A stretch of 64,000 bases of DNA. It comes from a phage. Shown in pieces: positions 56,710 to 64,000 of this stretch. Numbering within the stretch: position 1 is the stretch's first letter; each line of letters starts with the position of its first letter. The notes beneath the pieces are model-generated. The model made no database searches and was not told where the DNA came from. It worked only from the letters and a program-made list of their open reading frames with translations. The DNA lies in the NCBI GenBank assembly GCA_021525805.1, contig GCA_021525805.1_3940.1. One strand, written 5' to 3'. The translations under genes were made by a program, and so were the position numbers.

Positions 56710-57258
56710 ATGAAGAAGTTGATTCTAGGTTTGTGCTTAATGTTTACAGCACACTTATCTTATGCAGTTGACTGCCCAGAGCTATCAATTAGTCAAAAAG
56801 TAAACATGTTAAAAGCTTACCAGTATGGTGAGAATAATATGGGTAAAGGTTGGGGTATCACTCTAGCTGCTATAGCCTTACAAGAGTCAGAGTTAGGTCT
56901 GAAGGTAGAGAATAAAAAGACACATGATTATGGTATTTTCCAGAATCACTTGAAGACTGTTGTAAAGCGTAACAAAATCAGTCCTAATGTGGCTAAAAAG
57001 AAACTCTTAAAAGACTTTGACTATGCTGCAAAGGAAACGCACAAAGAGCTTGAGTTTTGGACGAAGGTACATGGTCAACCAAAGTCAAAGAAGACTTTAC
57101 AAAAAGTTTTAGCATCATATAATGCTGGGTATTCGTACAAAATCCCTAAAGCTAAGAAATACTCTCAAGATGTCTATAACAATATGAAAGTTATCGCTCA
57201 ATGTGAATTTGCAACAAACATTTCTAAGGTAAATCATGAAAAAATTAAGAAAGTCTGA
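56710..57258 (+). CDS. Secreted lytic transglycosylase-like protein (endolysin candidate)
   Basis: Signal peptide MKKLILGLCLMFTAHLSYA; SLT-like ALQESELG ... YGIFQ ... SYNAG. Confidence 0.45.
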   Translation: MKKLILGLCLMFTAHLSYAVDCPELSISQKVNMLKAYQYGENNMGKGWGITLAAIALQESELGLKVENKKTHDYGIFQNHLKTVVKRNKISPNVAKKKLLKDFDYAAKETHKELEFWTKVHGQPKSKKTLQKVLASYNAGYSYKIPKAKKYSQDVYNNMKVIAQCEFATNISKVNHEKIKKV

Positions 57259-57931
57259 TGAAGTACTGTGCCATGCTTACGACTTGCATCCTCATGAGTT
57301 AGGTCTTGATTCCTGTGTATGGACGACAGAACAGTGCAGGGATTTTGAAGATACTGCAAGAGAAGTTGTATGTTCACTTGAAGAGTTCCACACATCAGAA
57401 CCAATTGTGAACGTTGTGGACAAAGAGACTGGACAAACTGTAGGGGTAAGACGTGACAGTTTAGTCATAGTCAATAAAGACCTTGTAGAAAAAGGTAACC
57501 TTATCTTAGCAGATATTGATGGAGTTCTTACAAATTTTAATCACGAAGATTGTTCAACAGAATTGACTGATGGTTCATTTTCACAGTACACTAATCTCCT
57601 TGACTCTGTAAGAGCAAAACCAACGTATGTTTTCAATATCATTGATGCAATTGCTAATCATGCTGCTGTTGGACTCTTGACAGCCAGAGGTGATTCTCAG
57701 AGAATACCTACTGAGATGTTTTTAAGGCATAACATAGAGCATGACTACATGCTTTTTATGCGTGGTTTTGGGACTAACTCTATAAGTGCAGAAAGTTTGA
57801 AAGTGAGGATGATTCAGTCTTGCATTCTGCCTTACTTTAATATAATATGTTTTATAGAAGATACAGAGAAGAATGTGCAGAAGGTGAACAGAATCCTTCC
57901 ACACATCAAAACCATGTTAGTTAAACATTGA
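57236..57931 (+). CDS. Hypothetical protein
   Basis: 231 aa ORF. Confidence 0.3.
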   Translation: MKKLRKSDEVLCHAYDLHPHELGLDSCVWTTEQCRDFEDTAREVVCSLEEFHTSEPIVNVVDKETGQTVGVRRDSLVIVNKDLVEKGNLILADIDGVLTNFNHEDCSTELTDGSFSQYTNLLDSVRAKPTYVFNIIDAIANHAAVGLLTARGDSQRIPTEMFLRHNIEHDYMLFMRGFGTNSISAESLKVRMIQSCILPYFNIICFIEDTEKNVQKVNRILPHIKTMLVKH

Positions 57932-58458: not shown

Positions 58459-58806
58459 ATGACATTTAAAGAGTTCTGCCAAGCTACTTTCATAATTGTT
58501 TTCTTAGTTGGGGCAGGTGTCTGGGGAGGATACTCTTATAGAGACTATCAAGTTGCTGAAGCTGAGCTAAACAATGAGAAACTAATCAGTGTGGCTAAAG
58601 ATGCTTATCAGGAAGGTTTAGCCACACTGAGCACCAATTACAAAAATGATTTGAAAGATGTGCTTGCTAAGAATAAGCATACAAAAGAGGTATTAACATA
58701 TGAAAAAACTAAGCCAGAATTTTATAATGTTTGTGTTACTGATAACTATGTCAGGGTGTTCAACGAACAAAGTGAACAGTACATTCAAAAACTCCCAAGT
58801 AAGTGA
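58459..58806 (+). CDS. Inner-membrane spanin (Rz-like) candidate
   Basis: N-terminal TM helix then coiled-coil periplasmic domain; lipoprotein ORF embedded in its 3' end. Confidence 0.4.
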   Translation: MTFKEFCQATFIIVFLVGAGVWGGYSYRDYQVAEAELNNEKLISVAKDAYQEGLATLSTNYKNDLKDVLAKNKHTKEVLTYEKTKPEFYNVCVTDNYVRVFNEQSEQYIQKLPSK

Positions 58807-58969
58807 GGGTGACAAGTACACTCAAGAAGAATCAAGATTCACTGTCAAAGGTAATACTGGCAGTGATGTGGCAGCAGCCCTTGAGTTTTATCGTGATGGT
58901 TTTTACCAGTGCACTATAAAAGCTAATAACCTTATTGATATGATTTTATTAGGGAATAAGCAGCAATGA
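58700..58969 (+). CDS. Outer-membrane lipoprotein spanin (Rz1-like) candidate
   Basis: Signal peptide with lipobox-like ITMSGC; starts within 58459-58806 in a different frame. Confidence 0.4.
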   Translation: MKKLSQNFIMFVLLITMSGCSTNKVNSTFKNSQVSEGDKYTQEESRFTVKGNTGSDVAAALEFYRDGFYQCTIKANNLIDMILLGNKQQ

Positions 58970-59564: not shown

Positions 59565-59766
59565 AAAGACACGTAAAATTATCCGGTCAGCAGTATTCAT
59601 TGGAAGAAATGAAGTGATTCCTTTTACAGCAAATGATGTGATAATCTACAGGAAAAAATTAGCATTCAGTTATTGCTTACGTGGCTTTATCTCCCAGCCA
59701 TTGGAAGACTTTAAAAGTCGTTGTGGTAAAGGTATCATCATTCAAGAGGCAATTATCAATGGCTGA
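59539..59766 (+). CDS. Hypothetical protein
   Basis: 75 aa ORF. Confidence 0.25.
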   Translation: MKVILARDKKTRKIIRSAVFIGRNEVIPFTANDVIIYRKKLAFSYCLRGFISQPLEDFKSRCGKGIIIQEAIING

Positions 59767-59959
59767 CTTCTGCAAAGGCTGTTCTATCGAAATGTTCGGA
59801 CGTGATACAGGTGACTTAAAAGGTCTCATCACTGAAGATGACTTTAAAGCTGGTTATGCAATGCCAGTAATCTGTGAAGGCTGTGGGTGTATCTGGGTAG
59901 ACCACGAAGGGCAACGTGTAAAACCTTCTGAAGACAAAGAATCTTGGGAGAGATGTTAA
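59759..59959 (+). CDS. Small zinc-ribbon protein
   Basis: CKGCS ... CEGCGC; ATG at 59759 inside track ORF 59681-59959. Confidence 0.3.
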   Translation: MADFCKGCSIEMFGRDTGDLKGLITEDDFKAGYAMPVICEGCGCIWVDHEGQRVKPSEDKESWERC

Positions 59960-59960
59960 G

Positions 59961-60746
59961 ATGGGTATTGTAAAAATCATCAATGGTGATATCTTTGCTG
60001 CATTTGATAAAGGTAAGTTTGACATCATTGGTCACGGTTGTAATTGTATGAATTTAATGGGTGCAGGTATCGCTAACAAGATTTCTAAACTTTACCCAAA
60101 AGCATATGATACCGATACAGAAGTTTACCTATATGCAGGTGGCATAGGTCACAAACCCTGTGAAAATTTACTGGGTAATTTCTCTGTAGCACGTTTAGAA
60201 CAAGGCCGTATAGCTAACCTTTACACTCAGCTTAAGACTGGTAAAGATGCCCGATACAGTGCTTTAGAGTCATCTTTGAAGCAGCTTAACAGATACTGTG
60301 AAGTCAATCAGTTGAAGAAAGTCGGGTTACCTATGATTGGTGCAGGTATTGGTGGGCTAGACCCTCAAGCCGTCACAGTTATCATTAATCAGGTGATGAA
60401 GAGTGTAGATGTTTATCTGTATGTCTACGAAGGAGAGATGTACCACAAGTTATGCTCAGGTTGGAATAACTACTGTGAACCAGAATACTTTGCAGGTGTA
60501 GTTGTGTTCACAGATAATGCAGTTACCCTCTTCAGACGAAGAAAAGGTAAGATACATCAGAGTAACCCTCCGGTTGAAAAGATGTCTCTAAGTAACGCTC
60601 TAGTTACCCACCTGTCGAAGAGCAATCACAGGATTGCAGTAACATTTGGTAGTGATGCAGACACTTATATCTATGCAAGAACTGATGAGGATATCGAGAC
60701 AGTTTTCTCTTCTCCAGAAGTTACCTTCTTAGACGCAAAGAACTAA
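59961..60746 (+). CDS. Macro-domain-like protein with C-terminal extension (candidate)
   Basis: N-terminal GDIFAAF...DIIGHGCNCMNLMGAGIANKI and later GLPMIGAGIGGLDP, resembling macro-domain ADP-ribose-binding glycine-rich loops. Confidence 0.4.
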   Translation: MGIVKIINGDIFAAFDKGKFDIIGHGCNCMNLMGAGIANKISKLYPKAYDTDTEVYLYAGGIGHKPCENLLGNFSVARLEQGRIANLYTQLKTGKDARYSALESSLKQLNRYCEVNQLKKVGLPMIGAGIGGLDPQAVTVIINQVMKSVDVYLYVYEGEMYHKLCSGWNNYCEPEYFAGVVVFTDNAVTLFRRRKGKIHQSNPPVEKMSLSNALVTHLSKSNHRIAVTFGSDADTYIYARTDEDIETVFSSPEVTFLDAKN

Positions 60747-60796
60747 GAAACTCTGTAGTATATTCACAATAGACTAAGCCTTTCTTATCTGGTAAA

Positions 60797-61020
60797 TTTT
60801 TCAGGTAAGGAGGGCTTTTTCATTTCAGATTTGTGCAGGTAGAGTTCTGTAGAGAAATCTATAGAGAAAATTTTGAACTCCAAAGAGAAAATTCATTTTC
60901 AAACTGTGCAGGTAATCTCCAAAGAGCTTTTTCATTTTCAAAACGTGCAGACCCCGCTCAGGTCGGGCAAGAAAAATCATTTTAGAATTGTGCAGGTAGG
61001 TGGGTGTAGGTGGGGATGTC
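60797..61020. repeat. Iteron-like array of short direct repeats in non-coding region
   Basis: Four copies of TCATTT(T)CAAANYGTGCAGGTA-like 22-mer, three AGAGAAA(A/T) copies, two CTCCAAAGAG copies, two GTAGGTGGG copies. Confidence 0.6.
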
Positions 61021-61256: not shown

Positions 61257-61463
61257 ATGCTTTATAGTCGTGAATTGATGGTTACAACTAACGTTAACAC
61301 AAAGGTAAAACGTTTTTACATGCAAGTATGTGGCGCATGGTCCAGAATATCAGAAGCTGACTACTGCAACTATGTAGAAACGGCTATTAATTCTAATTGC
61401 TACCTTACAAGAAATACAAGAAAGCACATAAGACAGACAGCAATTTACTACTACGATAGATAA
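61257..61463 (+). CDS. Small early protein
   Basis: 68 aa; conserved leader ctaaactggaga...aaaatg upstream. Confidence 0.4.
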   Translation: MLYSRELMVTTNVNTKVKRFYMQVCGAWSRISEADYCNYVETAINSNCYLTRNTRKHIRQTAIYYYDR

Positions 61464-61468
61464 AGTAC

Positions 61469-61504
61469 TTTACAAGGGGCTTATAGTTCGATAAAGTAAG
61501 CCCC
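61469..61504 (+). promoter_or_regulatory. Promoter-hairpin cassette R1
   Basis: TTTACA, 17 bp, TAAAGT overlapping hairpin ggggctta/taagcccc, then conserved leader and RBS. Confidence 0.5.
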
Positions 61505-61549
61505 AGATAAAGAGCTTTACTAACTAACCTTAAACTAGGAGATTCAAAA

Positions 61550-61930
61550 ATGGCTTATCGTGCACCTAAATTCATCAACAAAGGCAACTTTCGCAACGCA
61601 CTGGAGAAGTCACTTGATGAAAATTTTAAAGGTAATATTATCGTTGTTCACGCATTCAATTTTAAGTATGATGTAAACGGGAATAGAATCAACCATTACA
61701 CGGCAACCATGTTAGATGGTACTCTTTCAAGTGAAAAAGCCGTACTGAATGCACTGGCAGGACGCGGAAAAGTATTAGTAAGATGCGATAAGAGACGTTA
61801 TCAGGGCGGCGCATATGGTTACGATGATGCTGTTTACCATCTTGAAAATATGGGCTATTCAGTGGAAAAAGCTGGAGTGTCTCAAATAATCGGCAGTGAC
61901 GGCTATGTGACAATTTTCAAAATTAACTGA
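61550..61930 (+). CDS. Small early protein
   Basis: 126 aa behind cassette R1. Confidence 0.4.
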   Translation: MAYRAPKFINKGNFRNALEKSLDENFKGNIIVVHAFNFKYDVNGNRINHYTATMLDGTLSSEKAVLNALAGRGKVLVRCDKRRYQGGAYGYDDAVYHLENMGYSVEKAGVSQIIGSDGYVTIFKIN

Positions 61931-61938
61931 TAAAGTAC

Positions 61939-61974
61939 TTTACAAGGGGCTTATAGTTCGATAAAGTAAGCCCC
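61939..61974 (+). promoter_or_regulatory. Promoter-hairpin cassette R2
   Basis: Near-identical to R1. Confidence 0.5.
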
Positions 61975-62018
61975 AGATAAAGAGCTTTACCACTCAATCC
62001 TAAATTGGAGATTCAAAA

Positions 62019-62276
62019 ATGGCTATTATCAAAAACGTTGTAGTTCCTGCAAAAACTCGTGATGACGCTCGCATCATGGCGAAAAAGGTAGGTGGGAAAG
62101 TGATTGACAATGGAAAACAATCTGCTGTAAGATGGGGCGTGAAGGCTGATAAACAACTAACCTTAAAACGCAGTTCAGACAATCTTTTTAAAGGTGTAAA
62201 ATCACTCGGTAAAGTTAACGTCTTTACCAAAAAAGGCTATAAAATGCACTTATCATTAACTGGCAATTTAATCTGA
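62019..62276 (+). CDS. Small early protein
   Basis: 85 aa behind cassette R2. Confidence 0.4.
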   Translation: MAIIKNVVVPAKTRDDARIMAKKVGGKVIDNGKQSAVRWGVKADKQLTLKRSSDNLFKGVKSLGKVNVFTKKGYKMHLSLTGNLI

Positions 62277-62284
62277 TAAAGTAC

Positions 62285-62320
62285 TTTACAGGGGGCTTAA
62301 AAGCTGATATCTTAAGCCCC
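62285..62320 (+). promoter_or_regulatory. Promoter-hairpin cassette R3
   Basis: TTTACA, 17 bp, TATCTT; hairpin ggggcttaa/ttaagcccc with a different loop. Confidence 0.5.
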
Positions 62321-62364
62321 AGATAAAGAGCTTTACCACTAAATCCTAAATTGGAGATTCAAAA

Positions 62365-62877
62365 ATGAAAACTGTAGATGCTACCTTTGAAGTTGTAAAA
62401 GAAAAATTCACTATTATTTATGAAGCTGTCAATTGCTTTGAAGCAAGCCATAATCTTGATAATTGGGAGTTTACAGATAACCATCAAGGCGGTGTGACGA
62501 TTAAAAATCCTAACTGTCAGCGCAATGATTTTAAATATGCAATCCCTTTAAATTATAGCCTTAAGCAGCTTTCTAGTGACTATGCAAAACAAGGCCGGGA
62601 AAACCCATCAAAAGAGGCTTACATCAGCTTACAAAAAGAACTAGAAAGGGATTTAGAGGCTTCAGAATACAGCCTTGCCGCGAAAGTTATCGATGCAAAC
62701 GGTAGCACGGTTTTAGAAAGTTTTTATATTGGTTATGCTTTCGATTGGCACTATAGTGACGGCGATGATTTAGATGATAGACTAAAAGAAGAGGTGAGCA
62801 ATTCAGGCGCAGAAACTGAAGTACTAGAACGCTTGGAATCATTAAAAGATTCAGTGCTGAATATCTTTAAAAACTAA
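62365..62877 (+). CDS. Early protein
   Basis: 170 aa behind cassette R3. Confidence 0.4.
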   Translation: MKTVDATFEVVKEKFTIIYEAVNCFEASHNLDNWEFTDNHQGGVTIKNPNCQRNDFKYAIPLNYSLKQLSSDYAKQGRENPSKEAYISLQKELERDLEASEYSLAAKVIDANGSTVLESFYIGYAFDWHYSDGDDLDDRLKEEVSNSGAETEVLERLESLKDSVLNIFKN

Positions 62878-62886
62878 ATAGATTTC

Positions 62887-62921
62887 TTCACACGGGGTTA
62901 TCAAGCTGATAAGATAGCCCC
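62887..62921 (+). promoter_or_regulatory. Promoter-hairpin cassette R4
   Basis: TTCACA, 17 bp, TAAGAT; hairpin ggggttatc/gatagcccc keeps pairing via a G-U position. Confidence 0.45.
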
Positions 62922-62969
62922 AGATAAAGAGCTTTATTCAAATCAACCCTTAAACTAGGAGATTCAAAA

Positions 62970-63266
62970 ATGAAATTATCAAATAAAGTTAGGGAAAATC
63001 TAAGCAAGTTACTTAACAAAATTGATTTTATCGAGACATCAAGAAATACTCATGAGGTTATGGAATGGTTACACGGGAAAATAAATGGCCGTCGTGTAGT
63101 GATTTGTTTATGGAATAGTTGCAGGGAGTATAAAAAACCTGTATTACAAATTAATGTTTATGACGATACTTTTAAAAGTCCAGTAAAGTCTAAAAGCGAT
63201 TTATTAGAATCTTATGAGATATCTGTAAATGGTAAAATCTCACAAAAAGAGGCAATACCATGTTGA
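62970..63266 (+). CDS. Small early protein
   Basis: 98 aa behind cassette R4. Confidence 0.4.
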   Translation: MKLSNKVRENLSKLLNKIDFIETSRNTHEVMEWLHGKINGRRVVICLWNSCREYKKPVLQINVYDDTFKSPVKSKSDLLESYEISVNGKISQKEAIPC

Positions 63267-63680: not shown

Positions 63681-63953
63681 ATGTATACTACTAACAACGG
63701 TCGTACTTTAAATGCCACTCTACGTCACTATGTAGACGGTGTGATGCACTTTGAGGATTTACGGGCTGAACAACATATCTTAGATTGGCAAGTCGCAGGA
63801 CTCCAAAAAACTGTTACGGGATACGGTAAAAAGATTCCAACCAGTTGGAAAGTTCACTACAAAGGCCGTTTGCGCAGAATTTATCAGGATGTTTACAGTA
63901 ATAGCGCATCAAGTTACATCATGGTAAAAGGTAAAAAGCTGCATTTAATGTAA
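63681..63953 (+). CDS. Small early protein
   Basis: 90 aa behind cassette R5. Confidence 0.4.
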   Translation: MYTTNNGRTLNATLRHYVDGVMHFEDLRAEQHILDWQVAGLQKTVTGYGKKIPTSWKVHYKGRLRRIYQDVYSNSASSYIMVKGKKLHLM

Positions 63954-63958
63954 AGTAC

Positions 63959-64000
63959 TTTACAAGGGGCTTATAGTTCGATATAGTAAGCCCCAGATAA
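63959..64000 (+). promoter_or_regulatory. Promoter-hairpin cassette R6 (cut by window end)
   Basis: Same sequence as R1/R2 with one loop substitution. Confidence 0.45.

What the first reader, a model, noticed from the sequence alone, without database searches (positions are those of the whole stretch)
59961..60746. Macro-domain-like protein at the end of the late-right module
The N-terminal ~150 aa carry glycine-rich loops (GHGCNCMNLMGAGIANKI; GLPMIGAGIGGLDP) that resemble macro-domain ADP-ribose-binding loops, followed by a ~100 aa extension. A phage macro domain could reverse ADP-ribosylation by host defences or process ADPR-derived products, which might link to the Prs/NAMPT module 8 kb upstream. 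The domain call itself is tentative.
Basis: inference. Interest (0 to 1): 0.55.

Follow-up and report, generated by a model that had tools for sequence, protein, structure and literature searches.

The report
Phage macrodomain with orphan C-terminal domain
This FelixO1-like phage gene encodes a genuine ADP-ribose-removing macrodomain of the same family as phage T4's anti-DarTG2 protein Tk.4/AdfM, fused to a fast-evolving 100-residue domain of unknown fold, so the domain call is right and already known but the extra domain is unexplained.

Summary
The ORF (59961-60746, +, 261 aa) is real and the macro-domain call is correct. It passes Pfam Macro's curated cutoff. A family profile hits TARG1, DarG, SCO6735 and Poa1p at E = 3e-16 to 5e-12. 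A confident AlphaFold model matches TARG1 and DarG (TM 0.81-0.85).

The window is a Felixounavirus. More than 200 GenBank records already annotate this gene as phosphatase, macro domain protein or O-acetyl-ADP-ribose deacetylase. The macro domain belongs to the T4 Tk.4 family (35% identity, E = 7e-24). A 2025 preprint showed genetically that Tk.4 is an anti-DarTG2 factor and named it AdfM.

All 139 family members examined have Gln where DarG and TARG1 have their catalytic Lys. SCO6735 has the same Gln and still removes ADP-ribose from thymidine in ssDNA. The most likely function is therefore an orphan, antitoxin-like DNA de-ADP-ribosylase.

The proposed link to the Prs/NAMPT module has no support.

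Verdict: a known family in a new architectural variant, of modest interest.

The parts
59946..59952 (+). Shine-Dalgarno-like GGGAGAG, 8 nt upstream of the ATG. The stop codon of the upstream 66-aa Cys-rich ORF (59957-59959) lies one base before the ATG.
   Evidence: Read directly from the sequence.
59961..60746 (+). Complete CDS of 261 aa plus stop: a two-domain macro protein.
   Evidence: ORF list. phrog_335 E = 3.4e-113 over residues 1-260. 92-98% identical orthologues in about 200 Felixounavirus records.
59961..60431 (+). Macro domain (residues 1-157), TARG1/DarG/SCO6735/Poa1p ('ALC1-like') class, T4 Tk.4/AdfM family.
   Evidence: Pfam Macro 32.3 bits against GA 22. Profile against PDB sequences 3e-16 to 5e-12. 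Foldseek TM 0.75-0.85. BLASTP to T4 Tk.4 35% identity, E = 7e-24. PADLOC DarG model E = 4e-13, macro part only.
60030..60083 (+). Loop 1, residues 24-41 (GHGCNCMNLMGAGIANKI). Contains invariant H25, G26, N28, C29, M33, G36 and A38. N28 aligns with DarG N22 and, by inference, with SCO6735 N27.
   Evidence: Alignments. Best PDB match for this segment is Poa1p 'IHSCNCNGSWGGGIA', E = 3e-7.
60216..60230 (+). Invariant N86-L87-Y88-T89-Q90 motif. Q90 occupies the position of the catalytic Lys of TARG1 (K84), DarG (K80) and PhiKZ AdfM (K78), and of Gln85 in SCO6735.
   Evidence: MAFFT alignment. HMMER alignment to TARG1. 139 of 139 family members have [T/S]-Q here. Role of SCO6735 Q85 from PMC9411070.
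60324..60365 (+). Loop 2, the phosphate-binding loop, residues 122-135 (GLPMIGAGIGGLDP). It is DarG-like (PPLGAGNGGL). Gly occupies the position of TARG1 D125.
60432..60461 (+). Linker helix, residues 158-167.
   Evidence: DSSP on the AlphaFold2 model.
60462..60743 (+). C-terminal orphan domain, residues 168-261: six beta-strands and a terminal helix. It is found only fused to this macro domain in FelixO1-like phages.
60776..60827 (+). Terminator-like hairpin (17-pair stem, 8-nt loop) followed by a T-rich tail. It closes the transcription unit that ends with this gene.
   Evidence: Consensus scan only. Function not shown.

Best explanation
The gene encodes an orphan, antitoxin-like ADP-ribosylhydrolase of the T4 Tk.4/AdfM family. 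It most likely protects replicating phage DNA from the host DarTG2 defence system by removing ADP-ribose that the DarT2 toxin attaches to thymidines in single-stranded DNA.

Shown here: the N-terminal 157 residues are a macrodomain of the TARG1/DarG/SCO6735/Poa1p class. All ADP-ribose-binding loops are intact and evolutionarily invariant. The protein is a clear homologue of T4 Tk.4. It has no toxin partner nearby.

Inferred chemistry: the family has Gln (Q90), not Lys, at the catalytic position. It therefore probably works like Streptomyces SCO6735 rather than DarG. In that scheme Asn28 locks Gln90, which positions the distal ribose, and a backbone-held water promotes cleavage of the thymine-ribose bond. 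Free ADP-ribose is released and thymidine is restored.

Inferred biology: anti-DarTG2 activity is transferred from T4 Tk.4 on the basis of 35% identity and identical motifs.

The C-terminal domain (residues 168-261) is an integral, tightly packed addition, judging from the pTM of 0.88. It is specific to FelixO1-like phages and its role is not established. My best guess is a fast-evolving specificity or partner-binding module.
For: Macro domain: Pfam Macro above its gathering cutoff. Profile hits to TARG1 3e-16, Mtb DarG 4e-15, Taq DarG 1e-12, SCO6735 1e-12 and Poa1p 5e-12, against >= 2e-3 for MacroD and viral types. Structural matches TM 0.75-0.85 at probability 1.00.

Family: phrog_335 E = 3e-113. 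BLASTP to T4 Tk.4 35% identity, E = 7e-24, over essentially all of Tk.4. Shared HGCNC, NLYTQ and IGAGIG motifs.

Function of relatives: T4 tk.4 was the single significant hit in a transposon screen on DarTG2, and a clean knockout sensitised T4. PhiKZ AdfM removes DarT2-made ADP-ribose from DNA in vitro. SCO6735, with Gln85 at the same position, cleaves ADPr-thymidine on ssDNA and rescues DarT toxicity, and Q85A and N27S kill or nearly kill activity.

Constraint: Q90, N28 and the glycine loops are invariant in 28 of 28 aligned homologues. [T/S]-Q is present in 139 of 139 family members.

Orphan status: no DarT, ART or defence-model hit among the 14 neighbouring ORFs scanned.

Host plausibility: the DarTG2 systems used in the cited work act in E. 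coli.
Against: No experiment exists on any Felixounavirus protein or on any two-domain form. The T4 evidence is genetic, from a preprint, with no biochemistry on a Gln-type phage enzyme. The similarity to DarG is not specific: TARG1, SCO6735 and Poa1p score about equally, and the NCBIfam DarG equivalog score is 47.5 bits against a cutoff of 250. The N-terminal loop is most similar to Poa1p, an ADPr-1''-phosphate phosphatase. One homologue is fused to a cyclic-phosphate-processing cREC domain. Both observations fit small-molecule substrates. SCO6735's Val25 is Gly26 here, although the proposed role of that residue is through the backbone. At 35% identity, substrate specificity can change.
Confidence: 0.55

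Rival explanations
1. It is a small-molecule ADP-ribose-derivative hydrolase, as the database label 'phosphatase' implies. It would dephosphorylate ADP-ribose-1''-phosphate or deacylate O-acyl-ADP-ribose. Alternatively it would destroy an ADPr-derived immune signal or an RNA-repair by-product.
For: The N-terminal loop is closest to yeast Poa1p, E = 3e-7, with Poa1p H23 and N26 matching H25 and N28. The whole domain matches Poa1p at 5e-12 and TM 0.75. Homologue P0026 has the same NLYTQ core fused to PF20274 cREC_REC, a 'cyclic-phosphate processing' domain. A PNK-like gene lies 2 kb upstream. Iyer et al. argue that phage Macro domains may prefer soluble ADPr derivatives (PMC9503650).
Against: The only functional data for this family, from T4 Tk.4, point to DarTG2, a DNA-modifying system. 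Poa1p S30 is Leu32 here. No KptA/Tpt1 or 2H phosphoesterase partner was seen in the annotated neighbourhood. The 'phosphatase' label is inherited from an old motif annotation ('contains A1pp phosphatase motif'), not from an assay.
Confidence: 0.2
2. It reverses ADP-ribosylation of proteins or RNA rather than DNA. Examples would be marks made by another host ART-based defence or by ARTs of competing phages.
For: TARG1 is the top sequence and structure match and acts on proteins. SCO6735 also de-modifies PARP1. RNA-ADP-ribosylating defences are mentioned as possible further targets of such factors (PMC11825919 discussion).
Against: The TARG1 Lys84/Asp125 dyad is absent: the positions hold Gln90 and Gly131. 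No ART was found among the 14 neighbouring ORFs scanned; the whole genome was not scanned. There are no supporting data for this phage family.
Confidence: 0.13
3. It feeds the phage NAD+ reconstitution module (Prs + NAMPT) by liberating ADP-ribose from conjugates for recycling.
For: Prs and NAMPT lie 8-10 kb upstream on the same strand. Several large-myovirus groups carry both gene types. In Vibrio phage Luma the macro homologue is annotated next to a Prs gene (H71).
Against: Distributions are largely independent: Escherichia phages have 994 macro records against 192 NAMPT. T4 has Tk.4 but is not known to encode a NAMPT (established knowledge). NARP2 starts from nicotinamide and PRPP and needs no ADP-ribose, and no macrodomain is part of NARP1, NARP2 or NARP3 as described. 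rIIA, rIIB and about ten other genes separate the two loci.
Confidence: 0.05
4. It is a non-catalytic ADP-ribose binder, acting as a sponge or reader, because it lacks the catalytic lysine. The C-terminal domain would be the effector part.
For: Lys is replaced by Gln at the TARG1 and DarG catalytic position. Catalytically dead SCO6735, DarG and TARG1 can still inhibit DarT by interaction.
Against: Gln at this position is catalytically essential in SCO6735. Strict invariance of N28, T89-Q90 and both glycine loops in 139 sequences fits an enzyme better than a binder.
Confidence: 0.05

Closest known systems
T4 Tk.4 = AdfM (anti-DarT factor Macrodomain; preprint 10.1101/2025.11.20.689424)
   Same: Same PHROG and family. 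35% identity, E = 7e-24, over the whole of Tk.4. Identical HGCNC, NLYTQ and IGAGIG motifs, including Gln at the catalytic position. Both are orphan genes in a virulent myovirus of E. coli.
   Different: Tk.4 is a single 155-aa macro domain. This protein has an extra ~100-aa C-terminal domain with no counterpart in or around tk.4. No phenotype data exist for the Felix-type protein.
Streptomyces coelicolor SCO6735 (PDB 5e3b; PMC9411070)
   Same: Same macrodomain class. Gln at the TARG1 K84 / DarG K80 position, with the supporting Asn and His present (H25/N28/Q90 against H24/N27/Q85). SCO6735 is a demonstrated ADPr-thymidine ssDNA hydrolase that rescues DarT toxicity.
   Different: The sequence relationship is distant: E = 1e-12 by profile and 0.31 by single sequence. 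SCO6735 has Val25 where this protein has Gly26. SCO6735 is a bacterial, DNA-damage-regulated housekeeping gene with no C-terminal domain.
DarG antitoxin of DarTG2 (PDB 5m31, 5m3e, 5m3i; NCBIfam NF048014)
   Same: Macro fold with TM 0.77-0.81. The Asn (N22 against N28) and the G-x-G-x-G-G-L phosphate loop are conserved. Both have a two-domain layout of macro plus a C-terminal module.
   Different: The catalytic Lys80 is replaced by Gln. The NCBIfam score is 47.5 bits against a cutoff of 250. The C-terminal domain matches neither the DarG profile beyond position ~150 nor any solved structure. There is no adjacent darT.
PhiKZ gp104 = chimallivirus AdfM (PMC13309987)
   Same: A phage-encoded orphan macrodomain. 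It counters DarTG2 by removing ADP-ribose from DNA, shown biochemically.
   Different: It is a separate lineage: clearly DarG-derived (PADLOC DarG 4e-39 against 4e-13 here) and Lys-type, with FPTK and K78. It is imported into the phage nucleus and is single-domain.
Human TARG1/OARD1 (PDB 4j5r, 4j5s)
   Same: Best sequence-profile match (3e-16) and best structural match (TM 0.85). Shares the MGAGIA loop.
   Different: The Lys84/Asp125 catalytic dyad is absent: the positions hold Gln90 and Gly131.
Yeast Poa1p, ADP-ribose-1''-phosphate phosphatase (PDB 6lfq)
   Same: Closest N-terminal loop (H-x-C-N-C…G-x-G-I-A), E = 3e-7. It is the origin of the 'Poa1p-like' and 'phosphatase' database labels.
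   Different: Poa1p S30 is Leu32 here. The rest of the domain scores no better against Poa1p than against TARG1 or DarG.

Membership tests
Macro domain superfamily (Pfam PF01661) | Score above Pfam's curated gathering threshold | tested here: met
   32.3 bits against 22, E = 1.1e-7, residues 25-141 covering profile positions 2-117 of 118.
Macro domain superfamily (Pfam PF01661) | Three-layer alpha/beta/alpha fold superimposable on solved macrodomains | tested here: met
   AlphaFold2 model with pLDDT 88.7. Foldseek against PDB: TARG1 TM 0.85, DarG 0.81, Poa1p 0.75, all at probability 1.00. 237 hits at E <= 1e-3.
Macro domain superfamily (Pfam PF01661) | Conserved glycine-rich ADP-ribose/phosphate-binding loops | tested here: met
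   MGAGIA (residues 33-38) and IGAGIGG (residues 126-132) are invariant or nearly invariant in 28 homologues and align with the equivalent loops of TARG1 and DarG.
TARG1/DarG lysine-type hydrolases (within the ALC1-like class) | Catalytic lysine (TARG1 K84, DarG K80) | tested here: not met
   Gln90 occupies this position. This holds for 139 of 139 family members.
TARG1/DarG lysine-type hydrolases (within the ALC1-like class) | TARG1 Asp125, second member of the catalytic dyad | tested here: not met
   Gly131 aligns with D125. DarG also has Gly here.
DarG antitoxin (NCBIfam NF048014 equivalog; PADLOC DarG) | Whole-protein score above the curated equivalog cutoff | tested here: not met
   47.5 bits against a cutoff of 250. 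Only profile positions 4-150 of 338 are matched. PADLOC DarG matches positions 18-145 of 329.
DarG antitoxin (NCBIfam NF048014 equivalog; PADLOC DarG) | C-terminal DarT-binding domain | tested here: not met
DarG antitoxin (NCBIfam NF048014 equivalog; PADLOC DarG) | Adjacent darT toxin gene | tested here: not met
   None of the 14 neighbouring ORFs scanned hits DarT or any other ART or defence model.
SCO6735-type (Gln-type) ADPr-thymidine hydrolases | Gln at the catalytic position, held by a conserved Asn | tested here: met
   Q90 aligns with TARG1 K84 and DarG K80, which the paper equates with SCO6735 Q85. HMMER maps query 3-91 onto 5e3b chain 24-106, which is consistent with that. N28 aligns with DarG N22, which the paper says is conserved with SCO6735 N27. 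I did not see the SCO6735 residues directly.
SCO6735-type (Gln-type) ADPr-thymidine hydrolases | Val/Ile25, described as SCO6735-specific, and the extended mobile loop with Lys89/Lys94 | tested here: inconclusive
   The residue after His is Gly26, not Val or Ile. The proposed role of that residue is backbone-mediated. K92 and K95 follow Q90 but are not conserved in the family.
SCO6735-type (Gln-type) ADPr-thymidine hydrolases | Hydrolysis of ADP-ribose from thymidine in ssDNA | not testable with these tools
   Needs an enzyme assay on DarT2-modified oligonucleotide.
T4 Tk.4/AdfM family (phrog_335) | Significant full-length homology to T4 Tk.4 and membership of its PHROG | tested here: met
   phrog_335 E = 3.4e-113. 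BLASTP to T4 Tk.4 35% identity, E = 7e-24, covering Tk.4 residues 2-152 of 155.
T4 Tk.4/AdfM family (phrog_335) | Single-domain architecture of ~150-185 aa | tested here: not met
   The best 120 family hits are almost all 140-185 aa. This protein has 261 aa with an added domain.
T4 Tk.4/AdfM family (phrog_335) | Confers resistance to DarTG2 | not testable with these tools
   Shown only for T4. No Felixounavirus data were found.
Poa1p-like ADPr-1''-phosphate phosphatases | Poa1p residues probed by the deposited mutants (H23, S30) | tested here: inconclusive
   H23 corresponds to H25, which is conserved. S30 corresponds to Leu32, which is not. I did not have the Poa1p paper, so the importance of these residues is inferred only from the PDB mutant titles.

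The most novel reading that the evidence does not exclude
The fast-evolving, fold-orphan C-terminal domain is a toxin- or partner-binding module. It would give FelixO1-like phages a second, non-enzymatic layer of neutralisation, for example by direct binding of DarT2 or another ADP-ribosyltransferase effector. That would make the protein a convergently built functional analogue of full-length DarG (macro domain plus DarT-binding domain) using an unrelated fold. The hypervariability, including apparent replacement of the tail in Kolesnikvirus, would then record an arms race with diverse host toxins.
Probability: 0.15. Interest if true: 0.6.

Novelty: new variant of a known kind. Interest (0 to 1): 0.35.

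Why it matters
DarTG systems ADP-ribosylate phage DNA. Phage 'orphan antitoxins' that erase the mark are a newly recognised counter-defence class (AdfN in 2025, AdfM in 2025-26). This gene would extend AdfM-type counter-defence to Felixounaviruses, a group much used for Salmonella and E. coli typing, biocontrol and therapy, so it bears on host-range prediction.

Two points go slightly beyond what I found in the literature. First, the T4/Felix 'AdfM' family is uniformly Gln-type, like SCO6735. The PhiKZ 'AdfM' is Lys-type and DarG-derived. The shared name therefore covers two independent recruitments with probably different chemistry. Second, FelixO1-like phages append a rapidly diverging domain of unknown fold to the enzyme. 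That domain is a tractable handle for asking how specificity or toxin binding is added to an eraser enzyme.

None of this overturns current understanding. The domain call itself is ordinary and already in GenBank.

Tried and rejected

2. C-terminal domain as a diverged cREC_REC domain, prompted by the macro-cREC fusion P0026. Rejected: hhalign probability 0.05%, and the predicted all-beta topology is unlike a receiver fold.

3. C-terminal domain as a fused version of a small gene next to tk.4 in T4, next to gp104 in PhiKZ, or as a paralogue elsewhere in the window. Rejected: an HMM search of all ORFs found only the domain itself.

5. A stand-alone C-terminal domain protein (P0046, 114 aa). Rejected: it starts with the last macro strand 'VDVYLYVYD', so it is a truncated gene call.

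6. The upstream Cys-rich 66-aa ORF as a conserved partner. Small CxxC proteins precede the gene in the window and in L004 but not in L005, and they are not detectably homologous. Not pursued.

7. A functional link to Prs/NAMPT. Not supported.

8. MacroD or viral Mac1 type. Rejected: the profile E-values are >= 2e-3, against 1e-12 to 1e-16 for the TARG1/DarG class.

9. The AFDB50 fold search for the C-terminal domain could not be run because the library was unavailable.

10. hhalign and hmmsearch of the phiEa104 tail against the C-terminal domain profile found nothing. Whether that tail is a very diverged copy or a replacement is open.
Full report
OBSERVATION. A GGGAGAG Shine-Dalgarno-like motif lies 8 nt upstream, and the stop codon of a small upstream ORF lies one base before the ATG. 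Both quoted glycine-rich loops are present, at residues 24-41 and 122-135.

The resemblance to macro domains is not a chance pattern:
- Pfam Macro (PF01661) scores 32.3 bits against a curated cutoff of 22, with E = 1.1e-7 and almost the whole profile covered.
- phmmer against PDB sequences already finds TARG1/OARD1 (1e-5), coronavirus Mac1 and DarG macrodomains.
- A profile of 28 homologues raises these to TARG1 3e-16, M. tuberculosis DarG 4e-15, T. aquaticus DarG 1e-12, SCO6735 1e-12 and Poa1p 5e-12. MacroD and alphavirus types stay at >= 2e-3.
- An AlphaFold2 model built on that alignment is confident (mean pLDDT 88.7, pTM 0.88). It superimposes on TARG1 (TM 0.85), DarG (0.81) and Poa1p (0.75) at probability 1.00.

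WHAT THE WINDOW IS, AND WHAT IS ALREADY KNOWN. The region is ~92-94% identical at the DNA level to about 200 Felixounavirus genomes, which are FelixO1-like myoviruses of Escherichia, Salmonella, Shigella and Citrobacter. In those records the orthologue is already annotated as 'phosphatase', 'putative phosphatase', 'macro domain protein' or 'O-acetyl-ADP-ribose deacetylase'. It belongs to phrog_335, labelled 'phosphatase', at E = 3e-113. The domain call is therefore not new.

The gene closes a long rightward block that in phage LinBro is annotated as anaerobic RNR subunit, Prs, NAMPT, rIIA, rIIB, a PNK-like gene and a spanin. A strong terminator-like hairpin follows at 60776-60817. This is not obviously a 'late' module.

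FAMILY. Residues 3-157 are 35% identical to T4 Tk.4 (E = 7e-24, spanning essentially all of that 155-aa protein). tblastn finds relatives of this part in 2,784 phage records. An N-terminal profile finds 5,083 protein clusters, and the best 120 are almost all 140-185 aa single-domain proteins.

Two recent studies give this kind of protein a function:
- A transposon screen in T4 found tk.4 as the single gene required on a DarTG2-expressing host. A clean knockout was sensitised, and the gene was renamed adfM (bioRxiv 10.1101/2025.11.20.689424).
- Independently, PhiKZ gp104 was named AdfM and shown biochemically to remove DarT2-made ADP-ribose from DNA (PMC13309987).

ACTIVE SITE. I aligned the window protein, T4 Tk.4, PhiKZ gp104, both DarG macrodomains and TARG1 (DarG and TARG1 sequences were taken from the HMMER alignments).
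- DarG Asn22 is conserved here, as N28.
- The second loop is DarG-like: PMIGAGIGGL against PPLGAGNGGL.
- The catalytic lysine (TARG1 K84, DarG K80, PhiKZ K78) is replaced by Gln90, in both the window protein and T4 Tk.4.
- TARG1 Asp125 is Gly, as it is in DarG.

The Gln is not a local quirk. N86-L87-Y88-T89-Q90 is invariant in the 28-sequence alignment. All 139 family members I collected have [T/S]-Q at this position and none has Lys.

This matters because DarG K80A is inactive (PMC5179494). There is, however, a precedent for a Gln-type enzyme. Streptomyces SCO6735 has Gln85 at exactly this position. It still cleaves thymidine-linked ADP-ribose from ssDNA efficiently and rescues cells from DarT. 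It loses all activity as Q85A and nearly all as N27S. The proposed mechanism has Asn27 locking Gln85, which positions the distal ribose, while a water held by a backbone carbonyl initiates cleavage. The authors note that this Gln distinguishes SCO6735 and ALC1 homologues from TARG1 and DarG (PMC9411070).

The window protein carries the same His-x-x-Asn…Thr-Gln…Gly-x-Gly set. HMMER maps it onto the SCO6735 chain in the register expected for Q90 = Q85, assuming the 20-residue tag typical of pET15b constructs; I did not inspect the chain's sequence. So the T4/Felix family is best described as a Gln-type member of the TARG1/DarG/SCO6735/Poa1p class.

The PhiKZ 'AdfM' is a different, DarG-derived, Lys-type lineage. 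It scores 132.9 bits on the PADLOC DarG model, against 47.6 for the window protein and 36.0 for T4 Tk.4.

The window protein is not a DarG. It scores 47.5 bits against the NCBIfam equivalog cutoff of 250, and only the macro part aligns. There is no darT or other ART or defence-model hit among the 14 neighbouring ORFs scanned. It is an orphan, antitoxin-like gene.

THE C-TERMINAL DOMAIN. Residues 158-167 form a helix. Residues ~168-261 form six beta-strands and a short terminal helix. Confidence is 83-93 pLDDT in the full-length model and 78.6 when modelled alone. The pTM of 0.88 for the whole chain implies that the two domains pack in a defined orientation; this is an inference, since I could not inspect the coordinates.

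The domain has no relative that I could find:
- It has no Pfam, NCBIfam or PADLOC hit.
- In BFVD only its own orthologue from phage SUSP2 matches.
- A profile search of 1.84 billion representative proteins returns only two-domain macro proteins, fragments of them, and repeat-driven noise from beta-propeller and other repetitive proteins.

It therefore exists only fused to this macro domain. The two-domain form occurs in Felixounavirus and in more divergent Ounavirinae phages (Citrobacter phage Moogle, Escherichia phage SUSP2, Shigella phage Sf13, Salmonella phage Si3). It also occurs in unnamed, more distant phages that keep the same synteny of rIIA-rIIB, Dam, SLT, PNKP, then macro.

The domain evolves much faster than the enzyme. 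For the Si3-type protein it is 24% identical against 53% for the macro domain. For the distant clade it is 11-22% against 39-48%. Only Pro174, Gly179 and Tyr236 are near-invariant. In the Kolesnikvirus phiEa104 the homologue is again 260 aa, but its tail has no detectable similarity to the C-terminal domain profile.

Net charge ranges from -5 to +4. The domain is therefore neither an obvious acidic ssDNA mimic, as described for the DarG C-terminal domain, nor an obvious basic nucleic-acid binder. It is not a diverged cREC domain. It has no counterpart near tk.4 or gp104.

MECHANISM, WITH STATUS OF EACH STEP.
- Shown: a macro fold with intact, invariant ADP-ribose-binding loops; homology to T4 Tk.4; Gln-type active site; orphan status; an appended orphan domain.
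- Inferred from relatives: the protein binds the ADP-ribose attached by DarT2 to thymidine in ssDNA of replicating phage genomes. It cleaves the ribose-thymine bond by SCO6735-like, Gln- and Asn-assisted, water-mediated chemistry. Replication is thereby restored.
- Not established: the role of the C-terminal domain. Its tight packing and rapid divergence fit a specificity or partner-binding role. One option is a convergent analogue of DarG's toxin-binding domain, to which I give about 15%.
- I put the anti-DarT2 DNA de-ADP-ribosylase explanation at about 0.55.

RIVALS.
(a) A small-molecule ADPr-derivative hydrolase of the Poa1p type (0.2). In favour: the N-terminal loop's best match is Poa1p, a related macro domain is fused to cREC, and there is the argument of Iyer et al.. 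Against: this does not explain the T4 genetics.
(b) Reversal of protein or RNA ADP-ribosylation (0.13).
(c) Feeding the Prs/NAMPT NAD-reconstitution module (0.05). The gene distributions are largely independent, and no NARP pathway uses a macrodomain.
(d) A non-catalytic binder (0.05). This is disfavoured by the strict invariance of residues that are catalytically essential in SCO6735.

NOVELTY AND VERDICT. Its defence-reversal idea matches the newest literature. Its NAMPT link is unsupported.

Two things are not, as far as I could find, described in the literature. One is that the T4/Felix AdfM family is uniformly Gln-type, like SCO6735, in contrast to the Lys-type PhiKZ AdfM. The other is the fast-evolving, fold-orphan C-terminal domain that FelixO1-like phages append to the enzyme.

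I class this as a new variant of a known kind, with interest of about 0.35.

Noticed in passing
window 60811-60995: Four direct repeats of ~28-34 nt, each ending in GTGCAG (…TTCATTTTCAAA-N-GTGCAG). They start at 60811, 60884, 60923 and 60968, with spacings of 73, 39 and 45 nt. They lie in the non-coding stretch just after the terminator that follows the macro gene. They may be iteron-like or regulator-binding sites; their function is unknown.
   Followed up: partly
window 61448-61551, 61918-62021, 62264-62367, 62878-62972, 63950-64000: A repeated ~104-nt intergenic cassette precedes each of several small ORFs (starting at 61550, 62019, 62365 and 62970). Each cassette holds a promoter-like TTTACA-N17-TAAAGT overlapping an inverted repeat GGGGCTTA…TAAGCCCC, followed by a GGAGATTCAAAAATG ribosome-binding site and start codon. 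It looks like a reiterated early-gene promoter/operator unit.
   Followed up: partly
window 59759-59959 (+): A 66-aa Cys-rich ORF (CxxC…CxxCxC, zinc-ribbon-like) ends one base before the macro ATG, which suggests translational coupling. It has no Pfam or PADLOC hit. A different small CxxC…CxxC ORF occupies the same position in distant relative L004, but not in L005.
   Followed up: partly
T4 Tk.4 (L002:4926-5390, minus strand) versus PhiKZ gp104 (L003:12518-13003): The two phage proteins independently named 'AdfM' belong to different lineages with different catalytic residues. T4 Tk.4 is Gln-type (NLYTQ), like SCO6735. PhiKZ gp104 is Lys-type (FPTK) and clearly DarG-derived: it scores 132.9 bits on the PADLOC DarG model, against 36.0 for T4 Tk.4.
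   Followed up: yes
P0026 (339 aa, metagenomic): A Tk.4-like macro core with NLYTQ and IGAGIGGLD is fused C-terminally to PF20274 cREC_REC, a 'cyclic-phosphate processing receiver' domain. This hints that some members of the family act on ADPr cyclic-phosphate or 1''-phosphate derivatives.
   Followed up: partly
L006:2998-3780 (Erwinia phage phiEa104, Kolesnikvirus): The orthologue is also 260 aa. It has Gln instead of the otherwise invariant His25 (AQGCNC). Its ~100-aa tail has no detectable similarity to the Felix-type C-terminal domain. This is either extreme divergence or domain replacement.
   Followed up: partly
window 58459-58806 and 58700-58969 (+): Two ORFs overlap in different frames. 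The second begins with a lipoprotein-like signal (…LLITMSGC). LinBro annotates a gene here as 'Rz-like spanin', and another relative annotates an o-spanin in this region (vB_Si_35FD). This suggests an overlapping i-spanin/o-spanin pair, sitting among metabolic genes rather than next to the endolysin.
   Followed up: no
window 57236-57931 (+): A 231-aa ORF whose LinBro orthologue is annotated 'polynucleotide kinase'. It gave no Pfam hit at E <= 0.01 here. The syntenic proteins in L004 and L005 hit HAD_PNKP only weakly or faintly, so the annotation rests on thin evidence.
   Followed up: partly
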